From Eledone cirrhosa (Eukaryota), in assembly GCA_964016885.1 (NCBI GenBank), contig OZ024743.1:230454001-230518000 (forward strand): 64,000 nt of DNA, written 5' to 3'. Shown one piece after another: positions 7,760 to 56,282 of the stretch. The notes below the pieces were generated by a model, which did not search any database, had not been told where the DNA came from, and saw only the letters and a program-made list of their open reading frames with translations. How positions within the stretch are numbered: the stretch's first letter is position 1; every line of letters begins with the position of its first letter. The position numbers and the translations under genes were made by a program.

Positions 7760-8101
7760 AGCCGTGACAAATGAAATTTCGTTTCATTTTTTCCGTTTAT
7801 CATTTTCGGTACATCGGCCGATTAACTCACTCGATATGCAAATTAGGCTGCTCAGCCGTTAATATGCATAAGGAAAGTATATACTTTCAGACGTTCAACC
7901 ATCTGGCAGGAAGGTATACGTTGCTGACGATAGCTAATAAGCTTGAAACTAGTACAGGGTTCCTTTGTCAGTGTTGAACAAATGAGCAACGATGGTTGCT
8001 AGACACTGTACGGCTTAATTCGGGATGTTTGTTTACAAACACACCGAGCATTATAATAAATGTTCGGTGAATCAATACGTACATATGTATATGTGTGCAT
8101 G

Positions 8102-43336: not shown

Positions 43337-45322
43337 TCTTTATATATATAAAAGTGAGGATGTGTGTGTGTCTGTGTACAAGTTTGTATACTTAAGGCTT
43401 TTACAATTACCAACTGAATTTCACCAAATTGTCTGTGCACGTTGCACAGGTCTCTAAGATGGTCCCAGCACAAACATTTTTTCAAATCGATCCACGTTGA
43501 GCAATATGAAATCGATATCAAAATTATCGGTAGAAAATTGATGTAAGGGAGATAACAAACTTTATTGACAATCCTTATAAAAAAGGGAGATAACCAACTT
43601 TTCAGAAATATAAACATCAGATTCATTTGAAGATAAATCACTAATATTATCGTTTGATTCTTGTTTATTCTTTGTTGCACTTTTCAAAGTTTAAAAAAAC
43701 ACTTGTTGTTTTAACTTGTTTCACTATATTAAGTGTTAATTTTCCTGTTATGCGCCTAATCTCGCAGCAGTCTCGAATTGACGAGATTTTGATGATGGTT
43801 TCTTTACTTTTAGAACAATCGTTATGGGACTTTCCATTCAACCCATTGGGACCTACAACGTTTACATTTTTAAAACTTTCATAAGCCTTGTTGATACAAA
43901 CAAAAATTTGTTGCACTTTCAAAGTTAACTTTAACGCTTCAATTCACACATTTTGACTTTACAACTTTTCACCAAATATGCCCCGTAAAAGAAAGTATGC
44001 ACATATTGGCTATCGGTCGAAGAAAACAATGCGTGTAAATGACGCTCGGCCGATAACCGAAAATAGACAATCACTAAATGCGGTGAGTACAGTTATTGCA
44101 ATATCTTTGTCCGCCGCTGAGTGTCCGTTAGTGCGGCGAACCAATAATGCTAAAGCAACTGCTGCAGCACGAGCTGCAGAGACTACAGAGCAACGTAAAA
44201 CACGCCTTGCTATGGATGCTACAGATACTGCTGCAGCAAGATCTGCAGAGACAGTACAAAAATATGAAAGACGCCGTGCGCGTAATGCTTCAGCTAATGT
44301 GCAGCAAGAGCAATTGAGACTGAGCAAGAACGTCAAAGTCGGCAGTTTGAGAAATGCTTCAGCTACTGCTACGGCACGAGCTGTAGAGACTGTAACAAGT
44401 CGAGCTATTAGGCTGGAGGGTAACACTCAACGTACAGCTTTATCGCGGGGTATTTCAATGTCATCACGCTCACGATGGTACCTTAAGGCAGTTAATTATG
44501 ACCTTAATGTAAACTATCAAATCCATCCTGATATTCAAATATATGCCATGTCAAATACTTCCCAACATTGTAAAGCTAAAAATGCGGGGGGGGGGGGGGA
44601 TCAGATGGAATGTGCTGCTCCAACGGTAAGATTAATTTGCCCACCCTTAGGGAACCACCGCAACCTCTCCAGATGCTTCTAACAGGTAAGCATTCGCAAT
44701 CACGTGATTTTCTGAAGCATATCCGACAGTCCAACATTTCGTTTCAAATGACCTCTTTCAGTGCAAAAATCTCTTTGCGTTTGTTACGAAAAGAAAAACA
44801 AATAATATCGTCTATCCTGAAGTACTTTAGTGTTAACAAAAAAAACTTATTACAGCTCTGCCTTCACTTCACCTTACTCATTACAAAACATAACAATGAA
44901 TATGCCATGCAGGATATTTTGGATTATAAGTTAAAAATGTCACCATACACAGCAAAGGATGCTCTCAAAGAAGAGATTTTCTCTTATTCTACTCTCATTG
45001 TTTTGTTTTTTTTTTTGTTTGTATACAATTCTGCTTTCATTACAACTTGTTGTACTTTAGCAAAACTGACTGTTTTTTTTACAGATGTGCAACGTGTATT
45101 GTCTTTAATCATTTGTATAACTACATCCTGTTCTGTGTTTTCCTTCATTATCAGCATATTTTTATGTGTACAAAGATTGCATTAAATATTCGTTTGCATT
45201 AATTATTGAAGATTTCTGCTTATTTTTAGTGGTTGGGGACAAATAATGTTCTTCTTTTACTTCCGAGCTGTATATTCTTAGCATCATTTCAAACCCTGAG
45301 CAACGCCGGGTAAATCAGCTAG
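43337..45322 (+). mobile_element. Internally deleted Helitron retaining the N-terminal region of RepHel
   Basis: 5' TC, 3' CCCTGAGCAACGCCGGG hairpin + CTAG, inserted between A and T. ORF fragments with R/A-rich repeats and CCSNGKINLP..FLKHIRQ.N.SFQMTSF. Confidence 0.88.
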
Positions 45323-45395
45323 TATATATATCTATAATTAGAAATTGAGATTTTTTTACAAAATGAAAAAAAACGAGGTGTCCTACACGAGTGAA

Positions 45396-45674
45396 TATAT
45401 AAGGAAAACGGATGAAATCGAAATTGCAACTGGAGTCTTTTTTTTTAAATATATTTATATGGTTCCTTTACCGGTTTCGCAGTTCTTTTGCTTTTCAAAA
45501 GTAGAACTGAAATTTAGGGTTTGTGATTTTTCTCGCATTTGAGAAAAACCACAAACCCTCCATCTCAATTCTACTTTAAGAAAAGCACAAGAACTGCGAA
45601 ACCGGTAAAGGAACCAAATAAATGTATTTAAAAAAAAAGACTCCAGTTGCATTTTCGATTTCATCTTTTTTCCT

Positions 45675-45680
<6 letters not shown>
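45396..45680. repeat. ~285-bp fold-back palindrome of two head-to-head HHR-bearing arms
   Basis: Arms pair across a 6-nt loop (GCATTT at 45535-45540). Confidence 0.9.
45462..45507 (-). ncRNA. Hammerhead ribozyme, U3-A8 core variant
   Basis: Minus strand: GTTC-ta-CTT-TTGAAAA-GCA-aaagaac-TGC-GAAAC-CG-GTA-AAG-GAAC; palindromic stem III (ACCGGT). The mirror copy at 45568-45614 has a mutated core. Confidence 0.65.
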
Positions 45681-45737
<57 letters not shown>

Positions 45738-45975
45738 AACGTTTCTCAGTAAAAAGCTGAATAAACATTTGTTCAGAACATCATATAACATATTTTTAAA
45801 CGATCTACGATATATCAATTCATAAACCAATTAGTATTTAATACATATATATACATATATATATGATATGTAGATTTAAATACAAATTTAGCCGTTAAAT
45901 TAAGAAAGATTACTCACATAAAGATTATATTTATATGGCCGTACTTCCAAATATGAGCATCTAACGATAGACAGA

Positions 45976-46044
<69 letters not shown>

Positions 46045-46439
46045 CTGTGTCTGTGTGTCTGTGTGCCATACCCTATGGTCTATAAAAATCTTCTTAGGGA
46101 AATTGTAGATAGAAATACTTTGACAAGACGACAGATTGACTATACCTGTAATTTGAAGAGGAAGTATTGTCACACACTGTGTCACACTAGATGTTTTTGA
46201 AAAAACGTTACCATTTATATATCTGTGTACGTTATTTTCCTGACGGTCGTTCCATTGTGTGAAAGCTGGCACTCTCATCTCCTAAAACGCTGGCTATTTC
46301 TCCATACATACTATTGACAGGGCAGCAATTAGTGTAATTTCATGTTCAAAGAGAAAGATTGTTTTGAACCTTCCTGCTTTCACATATGCATTTGTTTATA
46401 CTAACAACAGAAGCAGCGATAATTGTGTATTCGTAGTTC

Positions 46440-47105
46440 ATTTGTAATAATATTTCTCTTAACGATCATATGGGTGATATGGTGTACATTGAAATAGCTT
46501 AGTTATTAAGTTTACACTAATCATAGCGTCATTAGAATGAATATTTTAAATTTAGGAGACTTATATCTTGTATTATTATTTTCATGTTTACATGTTTATG
46601 AATATTGGTCTTGCTAAATATATAAAGCATTATCATTTGTGCTACTACATTTTTCAACGTGCCATTGTGTAAATAATGTACATAATTGAAAGATTATTCG
46701 ACATCGCATAAGTTTGAATTGCACTTGTAGCAAGAGTTACCTCCCTTGTTATGACAATCACATCACCGCTCTCTAGACAGGAAGTAGCTGGAGTTACTTC
46801 CAGTTGGGGTGGCATAACCATTTTTGTCACTTCCGTCCTGGGACCCTATAAAAGGGATACTCAGGGCGATCTCACTCTCTTCTAACTAGCCTGGTGCGTT
46901 CGCCGATGCTCTATTCTCTGGCAACCCTAACATGGTCTCTTGCGAGCTAACTTCAAAACGGTAACAAATAACTTCACTTCATTCTTTCATCTACCCATGG
47001 ACATGTCAACAATTCTATTCTACATAACTTCAACTTGTTAATTAAACTTTATACACACAACCTAGTGTCTTGTTATATTCATACAACCCAGTCTTTTGTT
47101 ATACA
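46440..47105 (+). mobile_element. Probable solo LTR
   Basis: TATAAAAG at 46847, then a pyrimidine-rich R-like stretch, ATTAAA at 47041 and a ...TTGTTATACA end. The 5' TG boundary and TSD were not resolved. Confidence 0.45.
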
Positions 47106-47439
47106 CTTAAATTTAAGAATTAACGGGGGATAATTGGAATATATGTAATATTATGATTTCCTGAATCATAACACTGAGTTTCACATTGCCAATTAATCAA
47201 ACATTCTAAACAAAGAAGCGGAGTGGGAATATAAGAAACTATATTCGTTATATATTGAAATATAATTTGCCAACATATAGAAACAGTAAAAAAATGCGCC
47301 ACACTTTCACTATTCAATCATCATATAGTAAACTAACACATGCATGTTCTAATATTTATATGCAAACATATAATATGTTTATGTCATTTAATAACATATG
47401 TACAAACAGTGATAATAAATGTTATGATCGATGAATGGG

Positions 47440-47630
47440 ACATAGTGCAACCTCAACGTATTTCTGAAGCTGATTCATTGTGACACTGCCTGAATTAAGT
47501 TTGACGTTTTGAATGTTTGTCCTGGTGTGGTAGCTGCAACAACGGGTAACAGTCTCTTACTGAAAGACACAACGCACCGAAAGGAATCGATCTCACGACG
47601 TTATAATCCTAAGGTGAACAGCCCAACCAG
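47440..47630 (-). mobile_element. Degenerate tRNA-derived SINE
   Basis: Minus strand GTCGTGAGATCGATTCC (B-box-like) followed by GCGTTGTGTCTTTCAGTAAGAGACT. Confidence 0.4.
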
Positions 47631-47729
47631 TAAACCAAGCATACACACACACATAATATATATATATATATATTTCGCTTCTGAATTTGGCAACATTCTT
47701 ATTGGCAACATGACCCTCCCAAAGTATAA

Positions 47730-47776
<47 letters not shown>

Positions 47777-48683
47777 CACACACACACAAACATACATACA
47801 TAATGCAAACAATCATTTCAGATATATACATCAAGTACAAAATAAATGTCGACTTAACAACATTGATTCGTCTATCTCATGATTTCATGTACACACACAC
47901 TAATATTTACACATGCATACTCATATATACACAAACATATACACACATTGTTTGTTAAGCAGGATGTATTGGCTTGATAAATATTATTACAAAGCAATGA
48001 TAAAAGTGATATTGAAAGTGAAAACTGTAAAATGTCATGATTTGCTCCATTTGATTCTAATTACACGCTTACATAAACACCTGATAGTTTGTCTGGACGA
48101 ATTAAGAACAGAGAAAATTGTTTCATTATTATATTATTAGTCTGTGTTAGTGCAAACATCATACGTATTAGAGGTAAGCTTCTGCTTAACATTGACTACG
48201 ACCTCTTTTTCACGTTTCTAGCCTCATTTTAAGGAAAATTAATTTCGACTTACATCATTTCCATGTCCACGAGGCCTTTTCCTTGGCCAGTTTTTTGATT
48301 TGGCTGACTAAAAACATCGCTTTCGTACATGAGGATATAAAACTTGCAAATTTACTTATTTAACGTGTTTGCTCATGGCACTAAATATCAATCAATCTCG
48401 TTCTCAATCTGTATATATACAATATTGTAGCAATGTAACGGGATGCAAATTGGTATAGACGTTAGAATATCAGAGAAAATGTGTTGTGGTATCGCTTACG
48501 GTACTTTGATTTCAAATCCAAACCAGCACAACTTTGTTAATATATAACAGAATTCATGTTATGTCGATCTCTATCTATACCATTACATGTTTATCGTTTA
48601 TGTATTTTTTCTGTCTATGTATATATCCAAGGTATAGGGCACTCAGTCCATGGGACGAGTTTTAATACATTATTAAATGCAAT

Positions 48684-48812
48684 TACGTCTCTTTACGATC
48701 TGAGTTCAAATGCTGCCTAGGTTAACTTTGCCTTTCATCCTTACGGAGTCGATAAAATAAAGTACCAGTAATGTACTGAATAATTGCTGGCCTTGTGCCA
48801 AAAGTAGAAACA
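48684..48812 (+). mobile_element. 5'-truncated tRNA-derived SINE with 15-bp target-site duplication
   Basis: B-box-like GAGTTCAAAT and central TTTCATCCTTACGGAGTCGATAAAATAAAGTACCAG; ATTATTAAATGCAAT at 48669-48683 and 48813-48827. Confidence 0.8.
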
Positions 48813-48880
48813 ATTATTAAATGCAATACTTCAAAGATATCTTAACATGGAAAAACGATAGGAAAAGCCTTTCATTGAGC

Positions 48881-48922
<42 letters not shown>

Positions 48923-48973
48923 GCTCAATGAAAGGCTTTTCCTATCTTCTTTTCTTATTTTACGTCTTTTATA

Positions 48974-49006
<33 letters not shown>

Positions 49007-50868
49007 TCGCTCAATGAAAGGCTTTTCCTATTGTTTTTCCATGTTAAGATGTCTTTGTAGTATTGCATTTAATAATTGTTTCTACTTATATATATATATA
49101 TATAATGTGTGTGTGTCTATGTGTGCGCGTGTGTATATGTGTGTATGTGTGTGTGTGTGTGTGTGTGTGCGTTTCTATGAGTTGTTTATTTGGTGTGAAC
49201 TTCAGCGTTTATTCTTTCGGGTATATAGATCTGTGGGTATATAAATATTTGAGGCTCTATGTATGAGTGTAGGAGACTGTATAAATTTGCGTGTCTGTGT
49301 AATATATATATATGAGATATTTGGTATGGCCTCTTCACTACAGAGATGGTATAATTTCTCACTTTCAACTGTGTATGCTTCGTCTGAACAAGGCGAACAT
49401 TGATGCGTAGAGAATTAATTATTCTACGATCAGGATAAATCGATATTATGACATATTGATAGTAGTTATGCAACCACATATTATTTGTCTCGAGATACTT
49501 GATCCATCTCGCCGTTTTCTTCTGTATCGAATAGTCACTATATCCAGATGTAATGATCAATCAACCTTCTGAAACGATCGCAAACAAGAAATGATTAAGC
49601 TCCAATAATTGCCCTTTGCTTTCATTGACCCCCGCCCGATATATATATAAATATATATAGGAGGAAGTTATGCCTAAGAAAACTCATACAACACCTACAC
49701 CGCACGCTACATCAACACATACGGACTATTTCCAGCCTTGTACCACAACTCACTGAAACCCCAGAACATCTGTCCAGAGTTATCTCCGCCGCTATAGACA
49801 GGTCATACCACCATCGCCGAGACTACGAGAAAATACGCCTAACGCAAACATTTCTCAAACTCAGCACGGCCAACCGTATTAACAACCACCCAACTCTAAG
49901 CACTAACAGAGGCGAACAAGACGGTACCAACACCGAACCTAGCGGCGCCCCGACCAACAAAACACCTGACGCTAAACACCTCGTCACAGACTTGACAGAA
50001 TCCCTCTTCCGAGAGGAATTAGACCTCCTCAGAGTTGGTCCCAAGTTCATATTGAAACAGAGACTGGACGACAAATTATGGCTCGATATAGAAACGAATT
50101 TCTGTCGGGCTGCCTACCAACTAAAATGGATCTCGACTCTCGGCAACAACACCACGGAATCTACCAAACCCAGATTCCCGATATATCAACTTGATCGCCC
50201 ACTCTGTTCACTGCTTGCCAACCGCGAGTTTGAAGAAAAACTCTCGAGGCTAAAACATTCCGTATTTAACATCTTACGGAAAAAGTAGAAGATAGCCCCA
50301 AACCTTTCCAGGACACAACAACTCGCCCTGAAGAAGCTACGGAATAGGAAACTTATATACTTACCATCCGACAAAGGTAAAGAGTTTTGTGTCATCTCTC
50401 AAGCCACATACAACAACCTAGCCTTTGAACATCTAAGCGGCATTGAACAATATAGTGAGATCCCGGACATGACTGCAGCCCAGATCGAAAAACAGGCCAA
50501 CTCCATCTGGTTCGACATCTGTAGGAGAAGACAACTCCCAAATAAAGTTGGGCTCAACTACACCACTAGAAATAGCAGACTGCCCACTTTCTACCCCCTC
50601 ATCAAGACCCACAAAAATAGTACTAAGACACAAATAAGACCCATCGCCTCTAGCATAGTAGGATCCCTATACAAAATATTTTGGATCCTCTCCCAGGTCC
50701 TCAAGCCTCTAATCTCCACATTTCCCCGGCATGTCAGTAGCTCCGACGAAGTCATAAGTAGACTATACCAACTCCAACCAGAAAAAACTTAAACTAAATA
50801 GATACGCCTTTAGCCTCGACGTTGTCTCCCTCTACACTACAGTCCCCGCTCATCCAGCTGTCGATTTA

Positions 50869-52017
50869 TTGACGGACTGCGTGGTTGCAGAGGACATCCA
50901 CTGCAACGGCTTCCATCCGACGGACATACACCAGCTTTTTTCCTTCACAGTGGACAACACGTACTTCACATTCCACCACCACCACACATACAGACAGACA
51001 ACAGGGTTACCCATGGGATCCAGCCTATCGGGCCTGCTGACCATCACCTATATGAACCAGCTAGAATGCCGAGCCCTCAACACCTGCCATTCCCATACCT
51101 TCTTCACCCGATATGTAGATGACATACTCACCCTTACATCATCCCGTGAGGCGGCGGATAAAATATACACGACATTCTCCAGCATGGACGCCAGAATAAA
51201 GTTCAGCATGGAACACCCCGATGACCGCGGATCCTTATCCCTACTGGACTTCCAACTCAGGGTAACAGAGAAAGGCAACATCCACACCTGCTTCTATAAA
51301 AAAGGCGCCAGCAGGGACCTGTTTGTACATTTCAGATCGGCCGTCCCAGCCGGCGGTAAGTTCGGATACATAAGGAACGAACTAACACCTATCCGGAACA
51401 AATGCACTGACGCTAGAGACCGAGACACATACACCATACATTTCCTGGAAGTACTCAAACCGAACGGATACCCGACGTTCACTACGAACCGTGCCAGAAA
51501 GAACAGAGGACACGACACCCGAGGCACTAACACCTGCTTCCTGAAGCTCCCACACTTCAGTGAGGAAACAACAGCCATCCGTAGAGCTATCAGACGAGAG
51601 GGACTAGATAGCCATCTAGCCCACTCAGGACCTTCTCTATGCGGACGGCTAACCAAAAGACACTCCACCAGACATGACAGCCGCTGCAGGCTAGCCAACT
51701 GCCCCATCAACGACACAGACCTATGCCACCAGGCTTACGTCGTATACAGATTAGAGTGCGACAAATGCAGCAACTTCTACGTAGCTAGCACCACCAGACC
51801 ACTTCACATAAGAATAAAAGAACACCTCAATACTAACGCTTCCTCATTTAAGAAACACCTAGTGAAATGCAAAAACACCGACAAAAACTTAACAGTTAGG
51901 ATAGAAACTAAGGAAAGAAACTTCGGCAATCTTAGAATTAAGGAAGCACTGATTATAGAAAAAACACAACCACCAATCAATAATAGACTAGAACTCAACA
52001 CCCAATTTATAACTTGA
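50869..52017 (+). pseudogene. Penelope RT C-half + GIY-YIG endonuclease (largest open fragment)
   Basis: 382-aa ORF; upstream RT pieces (49992-50288, 50469-50792) are separated by stops. Confidence 0.88.
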
Positions 52018-52397
52018 TAGAGCACCTAGCCCCATACCTACACCTCCCACACACACGCACACGCACTCACTCACACACACGCTTACACCTCCGCTTATTC
52101 TCTCTCACACACACATACAGACACAAAGACCAGTTTAACACGATAGAGCATCTATCCCCTACATTCATGTATAGACATATCTTCTCACACTCACACACAC
52201 ACACACATATACTTACACCTTCTCGTATTCTCCCACACACTTAAACATACATGTACAAAACCCATTTTAAAGGGAGACTACTCTTTATACACCTAACCTT
52301 CACTCTTTGACATTAGAGATAGAACAGATTCTCTATACCATTTCCTGTCAGCATGACTTGGCAAGCTATTTAGAACGCTGGTTTAACAATTTTACTT

Positions 52398-52434
52398 CCC
52401 TCCGAAGGAGAGATATTATCTCGAAAATTAAGGA
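52398..52434 (+). ncRNA. Degenerate hammerhead in the Penelope 3' pLTR
   Basis: cct-CCGAAGG-a-GAGAT-att-ATCTC-GAAA-AT-TA-agg; stems are present but the core departs from CUGANGA. Confidence 0.4.
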
Positions 52435-52616
52435 TATTTAAATAAATTTATGGTAAAAGACTAATTGTCAACAATATATTTTGCATCAGCATTTATATTC
52501 TATATCCATACCTGTATTGTATTGGCTTTACAAATACAGACGTTTATAAATCTCTCTCTATATATATATTAGTGAAAAAGAACAAAGGAACTATTATGAC
52601 ATTATAACAAGTTTAT

Positions 52617-52663
52617 TGCCGACAGCCGTTTCGTCCGACCGCATGGTGGGTCTTTTCAAGGCA
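52617..52663 (-). ncRNA. Hammerhead ribozyme, U3-A8 core variant (left arm)
   Basis: TGCC-TTGAAAA-GACCCACC-atgc-GGTCGGAC-GAAAC-GGCT-GTC-GGCA. Confidence 0.65.
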
Positions 52664-55600
52664 TATAACATGTGATTGTAAGATCATTATTTACATCAAC
52701 GTATCACTCAAGGCTAGCAGTTTGAAATTGTGGTATACATCAGCAACTCCGCTTGTATAGTTGGGGTCTATATTCTAAGGGGGCTCTTTTATATTAGTTG
52801 TCGGGGTCAGGAATTGAAGAATAAAAATTAGATAGTATATAATTTACGCATTAACAGTAAACTAAAAGACTTGGGGTCCCGTAGAAGCACCTTAGAAAAT
52901 CCCTCAATAAGTGCATAAAGCTTACAGGCTCCAATAAACCTACTAGACTAGAAGAAATTAAGAGGCTAATAAAATAAAAAAATAAAAATATAAAGTTTCC
53001 CTAAAAAATATATAAAGTTTCCTATGAAATTCCTTCTAGAGAAATATTTTTTTTCCGAAAGAAAAAAACCTTCTTCCCCCGAGATCACGTTTACAGATTT
53101 CAGAAAACTTACGAAGTTTTGATATTCCCTACTAAGTTGAAAGAAACTAATCAATTAGAGGTTAATTCAAAGAGCCTTCTATAATTCTCTCAGAAAAGGC
53201 CCCTTTAATATTTTTAATAGGAACTTCTTCCGAGAGACGCTTCGAAGAATTAAAATTTTAGAGACCCTTTAAGGATATATATATAAACGAATTGAGGAAA
53301 ATTATACATTAAAAGTTAAAAATTACGGTATTTGGGATATCCGAGGAATTTTCAAAGGGCTGCTTCAACAGATACAACTTAGGCATAATAGATACAATAA
53401 TTTAAGTAATTTAAGTAATTTAATTAGGGAGCAATTCAAGGAGTATATCAAGTTGGGCAAGATTAAAGAAAGTGGTAAATAAGAAAATACATAAGCAAAA
53501 AGACAATACTTATAAAATGTATTTTTTAAGAAGGTATAAGGTAGTTTCAGTAATCTAACAATGTATTATCACAAAAAATTATTATAAAATGATTGATACA
53601 GGATTAACAAACACATAATAATATATATTCCTGCCTAATTAACAAGTAATCAAAACACTATTAACAGTCAGGCAAAATTCGCTCAGGGATATCCCGCGCT
53701 CGGATACTTTACACACACACAGCAACACATAGGATTAGCACAGCCACAATGGTATATTCCTGCCTAATTAACAAATAATCGATTCACTATTGATGGTCAT
53801 AAAAATGTACTCAGGGATATCCCGCGAACGGATATTTACATACATACAACAGGGTGAACAGTACTGGTGACCGTGTGGGCGCGATATCCATTATGCGTAT
53901 GTAGTCATCTGCATAGCTCAAGGCACAGCTGGTCTTGTTTAAAAGTTCATGGATCAACTGGGATTCACTATCAGCTGCGTGGACTCTCTGGGAGATGTAC
54001 CTGTGGATCTAATAGCTAGTGGTTGCTGGATGTGGTCCGTTCGATCTTTTAGTTTCAGGGGTTGTACGCTTTCGCGATAGACCAGCCTGCCGGTTCTAAG
54101 TCGAAGGTCTCGCTACGTAGGATGTATTGGTCTACATGCTATATTGTTGTCTGATCACTCGATAAGTTAGTGGTTGTGCCCCTTGAAGAAGGGTGTGTAT
54201 AGCTGGTCTACCTGCTGTCTGCTACTACCCGAGACTGGACACGGTCGTAGCCACAGGCCAGCGCGATAGCATAGAATGCATTTTTTCTGCTGGTCACCCC
54301 GTGTAATACGATACCCTAAGATTCCATGCATGAGATTCACAGAAGCATGCGCAGTCTTAACCGGGAGATGACATGCGAACTTGAAAATACCACAAGCGAG
54401 ACCCTCTGGATAACGTAGACGCCGGACCATACCCGCAAATATATACGCTGATCTGTCTTGAATATACAGGGCTGACGGAATATGGATAACACGACCACCA
54501 TCTAAGCTGGGACCGACCCATACAGCAAACAAAGAGGGGACAGCCCGTCGCTTTTGACCAGTCGCGTGTGGGCTTGGAGTTCGTAATATACCACCCCAGT
54601 CAAATCCACACTGGTTTTTTTAACAATATAGCATGTAGACCAATACATCGTACGTAGCGAAACCTTGGACTTAGAACCATCAGGCTGGTCTATCGCGAAA
54701 GCGTACAACCCCTGAAACTAAAAGATCGAACGGACCACATCCAGCAACCACTAGCTATTAGATCCACAGGTACATCTCCCAGAGAGTCCACGCAGCTGAT
54801 AGTGAATCCTAGTTGATCCATGAACTTTTAAACAAGACCAGCTGTGCCTTGAGCTATGCAGATGACTACATACGCATAATGGATATCGCGCCTGGAGCTA
54901 TGCAGATGACTACATACGCATAATGGATATCGCGCCCACACGGTCACCAGTACTGTTCATCCTGTTGTATGTATGTAAATATCCGTGCGCGGGATATCCC
55001 TGAGTACATTTTATTGACCATCAATTGTTAATCGATTGTTTGTTAATTAGGCAGGAATATATATTATTATGTCTTTGTTAATCCTGTATCAATAATTTTA
55101 TAATAGTTTTTTGTGATAATACATTGTTAGATTACTGAAGCTACCTTATACCTTCTTAAAAATTACATTTTATAATTATTGTCTTTTTGCTTATGTATTT
55201 TCTTATTTACCACTTTCTTTAATCTTGCCCAACTTGATATACTCCTCGAATTGCTCCCTAATTAAATTACTTAAATTACTTAAATTATTGTATCTATTAT
55301 GCCTAAGTCGTATCTGTTGAAGCAGACCTTTGAAAATTCCTCGGATATCCCAAATACCGTAATTTTTAACTTTTAATATATAATTTTCCTCAATTCGTTT
55401 TTATATATATCCTTAAAGGCTCTCTAAAATTTTACTTCTTCGAAGCGTCTCTCGGAAGAAGTTCCTATTAAAAATATTAAAGGGGCCTTTTCTGAGAGAA
55501 TTATAGAAGGCTCTTTGAAATAACCTCTAATTGATTAGTTTCTTTCAACTTAGTAGGGAATATCAAAACTTCGTAAGTTTTCTGAAATCTGTAAACGTGA

Positions 55601-56017
55601 TCTCGGGGAAGGTTTTTTTCTTTCGGAAAAAATTTTTTCTCTCTAGAAGGAATTTCATAGGAAACTTTATATATTTTTTAGGGAAACTTTATATTTTTAA
55701 TTTTTATTTTATTAGCCTCTTAATTTCTTCTAGCCTAGTAGGTTTATTGGAGCCTGTAAGCTTTATGCACTTATTGAGGGATTTTCTAAGGTGCTTCTAT
55801 GGGACCCCAAGTCTTTTAGTTTACTGTTAATGCGTAAATTATATACTATCTAATTTTTAAACTTCAATCCCTGACCCCGACAACTAATATAAAAGAGCCC
55901 CCTTAGAATATAGACCCCAATTATACAAGCGGAGTTGCTGATGTATACCACAATTTCAAACTGCTAGCCTTGAGTGATACGTTGATGTAAATAATGATCT
56001 TACAATCACATGTTATA

Positions 56018-56064
56018 TGCCTTGAAAAGTTCCACCATGCGGTCGGACGAAACGGCTGTTGGCA
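56018..56064 (+). ncRNA. Hammerhead ribozyme, U3-A8 core variant (right arm)
   Basis: TGCC-TTGAAAA-GTTCCACC-atgc-GGTCGGAC-GAAAC-GGCT-GTT-GGCA. Confidence 0.7.
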
Positions 56065-56215
56065 ATACACTTGTTATAATGTCATAATAGTTCCTTTGTT
56101 CTTTTTCACTAATTTCTGCTCTGCGTATACGCATAGAGCTTAACTAGCTACCGTCATATATTTGGTAGGTCAGACGTGATTATCGCGATTCACATACGAC
56201 CTACCATACATCTTA

Positions 56216-56282
<67 letters not shown>

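What the first reader, a model, noticed from the sequence alone, without database searches (positions are those of the whole stretch)
45462..56064. Recurrent U3-A8 hammerhead core (UUGAAAA) in unrelated elements
Seen: two otherwise dissimilar families (45462-45507; 52617-52663 and 56018-56064) have stems I-III with TTGAAAA in place of CTGANGA, and a third (~39418-39479, -) has TTGATAA. Known: C3 and G8 form a Watson-Crick pair, and U3-A8 is a compensatory variant reported as uncommon. Inference: paired changes across families suggest functional ribozymes that CUGANGA pattern searches would miss.
Basis: partly seen in the sequence, partly recalled or inferred. Interest (0 to 1): 0.7.

Follow-up and report, generated by a model that had tools for sequence, protein, structure and literature searches.

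The report
Repeated U-A swap in retrotransposon hammerheads
These are hammerhead-shaped RNA motifs carried by jumping genes of a large animal genome; an already published U-A swap of one core base pair is the normal form in roughly 29,000 copies and likely arose at least three separate times, which suggests the motifs were kept able to cut themselves, although cutting was not tested.

Summary
Confirmed: the motifs are at the stated places (strands -, -, +, -). U3-A8 is the family norm, not decay: 98, 100 and 97 of the first 100 listed copies of families with 5,059, 473 and 271 exact matches. Genome-wide, one pattern gave U3-A8 29,930, C3-G8 14,546, U3-G8 645 and C3-A8 733, against controls of 508-1,138. 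Family A ends a Neptune-like Penelope-like element (PLE), B a Hydra-clade PLE, and C is a 320-bp retrozyme-like repeat. RT trees reject one origin for A and B (p-AU 3e-7). B and C each have homologous C3-G8 sister families, so the swap likely happened at least three times. Only the copy at 45462 keeps all majority stems, and it lies in a long hairpin; no monomer folds as a hammerhead by prediction; cleavage is untested. U3-A8 in PLE hammerheads, UUGAAAA and UUGAUAA included, is published for Schistosoma (PMC4209133), and this scan noted it before, also in this genome. New member of a known kind; the addition is repeated switching with natural matched pairs.

The parts
45462..45507 (-). Family A type I hammerhead, U3-A8 core 45498-45492; stem I 3 bp + 2-nt bulge + 4 bp, stem II 3 bp, palindromic 6-nt stem III, predicted cut after A17 (45469)
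   Evidence: 5,059 exact family matches
45323..45678 (.). Short inverted insertion made of two pLTR ends of the family A (Neptune-like) PLE; the plus-strand arm (about 45560-45617) has a broken core; the two arms pair and bury the intact motif in a read-through RNA
52617..52663 (-). Family B type I hammerhead, U3-A8 core 52659-52653; stem II broken at its second pair in this copy
56018..56064 (+). Family B type I hammerhead, U3-A8 core 56022-56028; U17 in this copy
52566..56223 (.). Inverted, 5'-truncated insertion of the family B (Hydra-clade) PLE: 3' non-coding region and pLTR on both arms, no RT left
39418..39479 (-). Family C type I hammerhead, U3-A8 core 39466-39460, 12-nt palindromic stem III; stem I broken in this copy
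39287..40102 (-). 2.5 tandem units (323 bp) of family C, a non-coding retrozyme-like repeat; the second unit has a mutated core, the third is truncated

Best explanation
These are type I hammerhead motifs at the ends of Penelope-like retroelements and a short tandem derivative, whose C3-G8 core pair reads U3-A8; the swap likely became fixed at least three separate times in source elements and was then copied, and the motifs would likely cut element RNA as dimers. Shown: anatomy, family-wide fixation, links of A and B to RT/GIY-YIG ORFs of different PLE branches, C3-G8 sisters of B and C, near absence of mismatched 3-8 states. Inferred: selection on the 3-8 pair acted on source elements, not on dispersed copies; two motifs in a tandem transcript pair through their self-complementary stem III and cut after N17, probably helped by the element's protein, releasing unit-length RNA for reverse transcription; direction C-G to U-A. 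The window copies are probably inert passengers.
For: Fixation; per-position counts on 74, 75 and 61 ungapped copies give U3 100/100/100% and A8 100/100/100%. Two-by-two census: 29,930 / 14,546 paired against 645 / 733 mismatched, controls 1,138 / 508 / 512 / 659. ORF links: B flanks a 5.85-kb unit with RT and C-terminal GIY-YIG; A follows a different RT/GIY-YIG ORF in L134 and L135, with the same ORF or its end beside A in L140, L064, L075. Trees: U-A carriers A, A3, B not one clade, p-AU 3e-7; B groups with three C3-G8 families (85-92% bootstrap) and its motif aligns with theirs. C aligns over the whole unit with C3-G8 family F, motif in register; 8 of 12 pairs change on both sides, 95.8% of cells paired, 6 rows. 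Stem III self-duplexes -8.3, -9.7, -20.1 kcal/mol. Published: U3-A8 active in vitro and natural (PMC3088659 section 8); PLE hammerheads cut weakly as dimers (PMC4209133); an anole PLE hammerhead needs the 3-8 pair and the element's protein (PMC11167929).
Against: No cleavage data. No tested monomer has the hammerhead fold as its minimum-energy structure (6 of 6). The genome also carries abundant families with fixed changes at core positions thought essential (U4A, U4C, A13C), so copying does not always need a textbook core. Counts are copies, not events; the reversed-pattern control keeps letters but not dinucleotides. Family T shows about 4-6% non-A at position 8 and seven U3-G8 copies that share a loop variant, so a mismatch may have been copied. 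No C3-G8 sister was found for the A group. A fourth origin (family D) is rejected as one clade with B by RT (p 0.022) but not by EN (p 0.16). Clade names rest on motifs, with no reference sequences in the trees; long branches meet. In the anole element, dead ribozymes did not impair insertion in vitro (PMC11167929).
Confidence: 0.75

Rival explanations
1. The fold is kept but cutting is negligible: the motif serves as a protein-binding or template signal at the pLTR end, or is a relaxed relic, and U3-A8 is one of several tolerated cores.
For: Fixed U4A, U4C and A13C families; predicted misfolds; low in vitro activity of minimal PLE hammerheads (PMC4209133); insertion unaffected by ribozyme-dead mutants and no RNA-seq ends at the cut site in the anole element (PMC11167929).
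Against: The 3-8 pair belongs to the catalytic core, and mismatched states are near background; all three stems covary around an otherwise fixed core.
Confidence: 0.15
2. One origin: U3-A8 arose once and the ribozyme or pLTR end was passed between families by recombination or template switching.
For: PLE copies are nested and adjacent throughout the loci; A, A2, A3, T, U, W2 share core and stem III and may well be one inherited lineage.
Against: B's motif resembles its C3-G8 sisters in stems and flanks, not A or C; C's whole unit is homologous to C3-G8 family F. A swap would have to be confined to the 7-nt core.
Confidence: 0.07
3. Decayed C3-G8 copies or chance matches in AT-rich DNA.
For: The genome is AT-rich; both changes are AT-ward transitions; window copies are individually mutated.
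Against: 97-100 of 100 listed copies per family are U3-A8; single-step intermediates are 40-fold rarer than the double change; shuffles give 0.
Confidence: 0.02

Closest known systems
U3-A8 minimal hammerheads of Cercyon Penelope-like elements, Schistosoma mansoni (Cervera and De la Pena 2014, PMC4209133; main text parts 1-3 of 4 and part 2 of 3 of supplementary file 2 read)
   Same: Type I hammerhead in PLE pLTRs; U3-A8 in place of C3-G8, about 1,300 hits; the supplement lists both UUGAAAA and UUGAUAA in two S. mansoni families and a similar-looking C3-G8 motif in S. japonicum; opposite-strand pairs; dimer model.
   Different: Here the motifs have longer self-complementary stems III (6-12 nt) and no extra base after A9; they sit in Neptune-like and Hydra PLEs and in a tandem non-coding repeat; about 29,000 copies; independent origins were tested with trees and sister families.
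Natural U3-A8 core covariation (Perreault et al. 2011, PMC3088659; section 8 and passages read)
   Same: C3-G8 to U3-A8 in several natural hammerheads; stated to be active in vitro, citing Przybilski and Hammann 2007 (not held, not read).
   Different: Described there as rare; no genome-wide or family-level census in the parts read.
Metazoan non-LTR retrozymes (Cervera and De la Pena 2020, PMC7229834, passages; bioRxiv 10.64898/2026.07.22.740005, abstract start and passages)
   Same: Family C: about 320-bp AT-rich non-coding tandem repeat with one type I hammerhead per unit.
   Different: U3-A8 core; circular RNA not shown; many copies are inverted pairs in (TA)n.
Hydra and Neptune clades of PLEs (Craig et al. 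2021, PMC8557442; section 11 and passages read)
   Same: C-terminal GIY-YIG, linker cysteine motifs, pLTR hammerheads, (TA)n insertion, inverted truncated copies.
   Different: That paper reports canonical hammerheads in Hydra and used a cuganga string for core searches; family B has U3-A8 and a 5.85-kb unit, longer than the under 3 kb given as typical.

Membership tests
Type I hammerhead ribozyme | Core N3-U-G-A-N7-N8-A, GAAA and UH in type I order, with a Watson-Crick 3-8 pair | tested here: met
   pair is U-A, the published variant
Type I hammerhead ribozyme | Three helices, supported by compensatory change | tested here: met
   C/F group: 8 of 12 pairs change on both sides, 6 rows; B group by eye; stem III mainly as a dimer helix. 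Two window copies break a stem.
Type I hammerhead ribozyme | Loop 1-loop 2 tertiary contact | not tested
   A has a 2-nt bulge in stem I that could serve; not analysed
Type I hammerhead ribozyme | Site-specific self-cleavage | not testable with these tools
   needs an assay
Penelope-like element (families A, B) | One ORF with RT and C-terminal GIY-YIG, followed by a pLTR with the hammerhead; tandem or inverted copies; (TA)n sites | tested here: met
   Pfam RT and GIY-YIG hits are weak and below the curated cut-offs; motifs read from translations
Hydra clade (family B) | CxCX5C linker, DKT motif, CxxC and CxH at the EN end, C-terminal EN | tested here: met
   translations against PMC8557442 section 11; RWK reads RWR
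Hydra clade (family B) | Placement in a tree with named reference elements | not tested
   no reference sequences on hand; trees hold this genome's elements only
Neptune clade (family A) | CX2-5CxxC linker, DKG, GxKF, CCHH in EN | tested here: met
   translations; Nematis has a similar linker (PMC8557442), hence 'Neptune-like'
Neptune clade (family A) | Placement in a tree with named reference elements | not tested
   as above
Non-LTR retrozyme (family C) | 150-450-bp low-GC non-coding tandem repeat with a type I hammerhead | tested here: met
   no shared upstream coding sequence among 54 oriented loci
Non-LTR retrozyme (family C) | Expression as linear and circular RNA | not testable with these tools
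   needs RNA data

The most novel reading that the evidence does not exclude
The catalytic 3-8 pair flips repeatedly because flanking sequence selects it: in U3-A8 families a C3 would pair more strongly with a G in loop II or stem III and lock an inactive fold, so U3-A8 is an escape from misfolding, reached through a briefly copied U3.G8 wobble. The genome would then hold at least three natural replicates of a compensatory crossing in a ribozyme active site, with an intermediate still visible in family T.
Probability: 0.2. Interest if true: 0.58.

Novelty: new member of a known kind. Interest (0 to 1): 0.34.

Why it matters
The variant itself is known. What this genome adds is comparative evidence that PLE hammerheads, whose role is disputed, are under selection at a catalytic pair: the two paired states are common, the mismatched ones nearly absent, and the switch recurred. 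Matched natural pairs (B with B' and J; C with F) allow direct kinetic tests of a compensatory change in its own context. In practice, CUGANGA-only searches miss about one in seven conventional hammerheads here (5 of 33 strict hits) and two-thirds of one pattern class.

Tried and rejected
Rfam at E<=1: no hit on the four motifs. (C3 version of B, 0 matches) used the window's rare loop variant and is uninformative. One search had one N too many, missed the main families, and served only as a source of leads. I first took family B for a Naiad; the C-terminal endonuclease and motifs say Hydra. The nearby PLE ORF 49629-52017 is not B's parent; it has its own hammerhead at 52399-52433. No coding partner was found for C, V, T or U; the ORF upstream of U in L245 belongs to another family. 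Hammerheads of five other Neptune-like and about eight Hydra-like RT fragments were not found, so those rows are unlabelled in the trees (13 of 28, 9 of 18 and 7 of 18). Loose family counts in the 600-kb sample (26 U-A, 90 C-G) were dropped because at least 9 U-A hits proved false. A large hidden C3-G8 branch in family T was considered and rejected: no C at position 3 at the 4% level (one sample, contigs). Misfold test: an idea formed after seeing A, B and C; C3-G8 costs 1.3-1.5 kcal/mol more in 12 U-A families against -0.2 to 0.05 in 15 C-G families (p 0.003-0.01; 3 of 30 families did not parse), but the families are related (about 4 of 5 lineages against about half), and drift after fixation predicts the same. 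No RNA holder listed. Papers not held: Przybilski and Hammann 2007, Lunse et al. 2016, Nelson and Uhlenbeck 2008, Hammann et al. 2012; they may hold rates for U3-A8 or more natural cases. Supplement file 1 of PMC4209133 and all supplements of the other papers were not seen.
Full report
Observation. Each has the type I hammerhead order: stem I, a 7-nt core with U at 3 and A at 8, stem II opened by G10.1-C11.1, GAAA, a self-complementary stem III, UH, stem I. The window is a nest of retroelements and (TA)n tracts in a 3.0-Gb genome. A strict descriptor gave 33 hits in 60 evenly spaced 10-kb stretches and none in five shuffles. Rfam missed all four.

Fixed or decayed? Patterns that left positions 3, 7 and 8 free gave 5,059 (A), 473 (B) and 271 (C) exact matches, reversed controls 0. 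Of the first 100 places listed, 98, 100 and 97 are U3-A8. These patterns fix the stems, so they count near-intact copies only. A family-free pattern gave 29,930 U3-A8, 14,546 C3-G8, 645 U3-G8 and 733 C3-A8, with controls of 1,138, 508, 512 and 659. The paired states dominate and the single-step intermediates are near background. That pattern omits several C3-G8 families, so the share among all conventional hammerheads is lower: 27 C-G, 5 U-A and 1 U-G in the unbiased sample. The window copies are worn: a stem II mismatch at 52617, U17 at 56018, a broken stem I at 39418; the A copy is intact, but its minus-strand read-through folds into a long hairpin with the opposite arm.

What carries them. 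[quoted passage not shown] The window holds an inverted 3' remnant. A follows another RT/GIY-YIG ORF with DKG, a CX4CxxC linker and CCHH (L134, L135): Neptune-like. C is a non-coding 320-bp unit in tandem or inverted copies within (TA)n, with no shared upstream sequence among 54 oriented loci, like the non-LTR retrozymes of PMC7229834 (passages). More U3-A8 families turned up: A2 and A3 (Neptune-like ORFs), T, U, W2 (same stem III as A), D (Hydra ORF), C2 and V.

How many origins? In an RT tree of 28 fragments (15 with a known core, 13 unlabelled) the U3-A8 carriers A, A3 and B are not one clade (p-AU 3e-7, at least two changes; long branches flagged). Within Hydra, B groups with three C3-G8 families, B', Y and J (92% RT, 85% EN, not starred; B' is a 49-residue piece), and its motif aligns with those of B' and J in stems and flanks while the core reads UUGAAAA against CUGAAGA or CUGAUGA. 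C is homologous along its whole unit to the C3-G8 tandem family F, with the motif in register; in that six-row alignment 8 of 12 pairs, the 3-8 pair included, change on both sides (related rows, so not a probability). That makes three likely independent switches: A group, B, C group. D may be a fourth (RT p 0.022, EN p 0.16). Within the A group the variant looks inherited. Direction from C-G to U-A is inferred from B's relatives and from the canonical state.

Mechanism. From established hammerhead work (recalled, and stated in PMC3088659 section 8 and PMC11167929 passages), positions 3 and 8 pair in the catalytic core and any swap must keep the pair. None of six monomers tested folds as a hammerhead by minimum energy, while stems III self-pair at -8 to -20 kcal/mol, fitting the dimer model of PMC4209133. 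I infer that tandem transcripts of source elements cut after N17, probably with help from the element's protein as shown for an anole PLE (PMC11167929), to give unit RNA. Selection acts at the source; dispersed copies then decay. Confidence 0.75. Against: no assay; fixed U4A, U4C and A13C families in the same genome; dead ribozymes did not block insertion in vitro in the anole element; family T has 4-6% non-A at position 8 and seven U3-G8 copies sharing a loop variant; the published alignment also holds one U3-G8 motif (Saccoglossus).

Why U-A? AT-biased mutation plus compensation is enough. A bolder idea is escape from misfolding: swapping to C3-G8 in silico costs 1.3-1.5 kcal/mol more in U-A families than -0.2 to 0.05 in C-G families. 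The test was devised after seeing the data, families are related, and later drift predicts the same, so it is a hint.

Known work. PMC4209133 reports U3-A8 in Cercyon PLE hammerheads of Schistosoma mansoni, about 1,300 hits, and its supplement lists UUGAAAA and UUGAUAA in two families. PMC3088659 reports natural U3-A8. Five paper searches showed no paper counting independent origins of U3-A8 in one genome, but four relevant papers were not held. Earlier notes of this scan record the variant in at least 8 genomes, this one included; a words search for convergent origins found none. Those are unchecked AI notes and add no support.

Verdict. Real, fixed, a known kind. The new part is the census and the repeated switch with natural matched pairs. 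Interest 0.34.

Noticed in passing
window 62170-62235 (+) and about 60540-60600 (-); L038, L167, L191: Family Q, the end of a Hydra-like PLE, has a hammerhead-like motif with fixed U4A (core CAGAAGA), a U.U pair at the base of stem II and a stable stem III; 16 hits in the 600-kb unbiased sample, among the most abundant families.
   Followed up: partly
window 49629-52017 (+) and 52399-52433 (+); L054, L124, L181, L189: Broken PLE ORF (RT and GIY-YIG) whose pLTR holds a minimal hammerhead with fixed U4C (core CCGAAGA; the window copy also has A9G) and a 4-nt palindromic stem III. A Hydra relative of B in L245 also shows C4 in its single copy.
   Followed up: partly
L013, L063, L124, L174, L208, L217: Family A2 (U3-A8, Neptune-like ORF) reads GCAA for GAAA (A13C) in all 6 copies seen, a change expected to stop cutting; it was still copied.
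   Followed up: partly
L261-L280: Family T has an excess of mismatched cores: 15 of the 100 listed U3-G8 hits are T-like, seven share a loop variant; four C3-A8 copies share a 3' flank. Possible copied intermediates or a relaxed family with a weak stem I.
   Followed up: partly
window about 26500-38760 (+): Array of about 23 units of 519 bp, each with a C3-G8 hammerhead with a long stem II loop; one unit is U3-G8 (34846). Not contiguous with the Hydra-like ORF at 23320-25391.
   Followed up: partly
window 39024-39068 (-), 56629-56659 (-), 57070-57100 (+), about 7890-7960 (+): Further C3-G8 hammerheads of three other repeat families.
   Followed up: no
window 62508-63972 (+) and L260 2454-2515: Hydra-like PLE running off the window end; its pLTR carries C3-G8 family J, a sister of B.
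   Followed up: yes
window 59112-59816 (+); 43341-45345 and 57446-60519: Pif1 helicase fragment and two related copies of a repeat about 14-15 kb apart, probably Helitron-like (the label is recalled).
   Followed up: no
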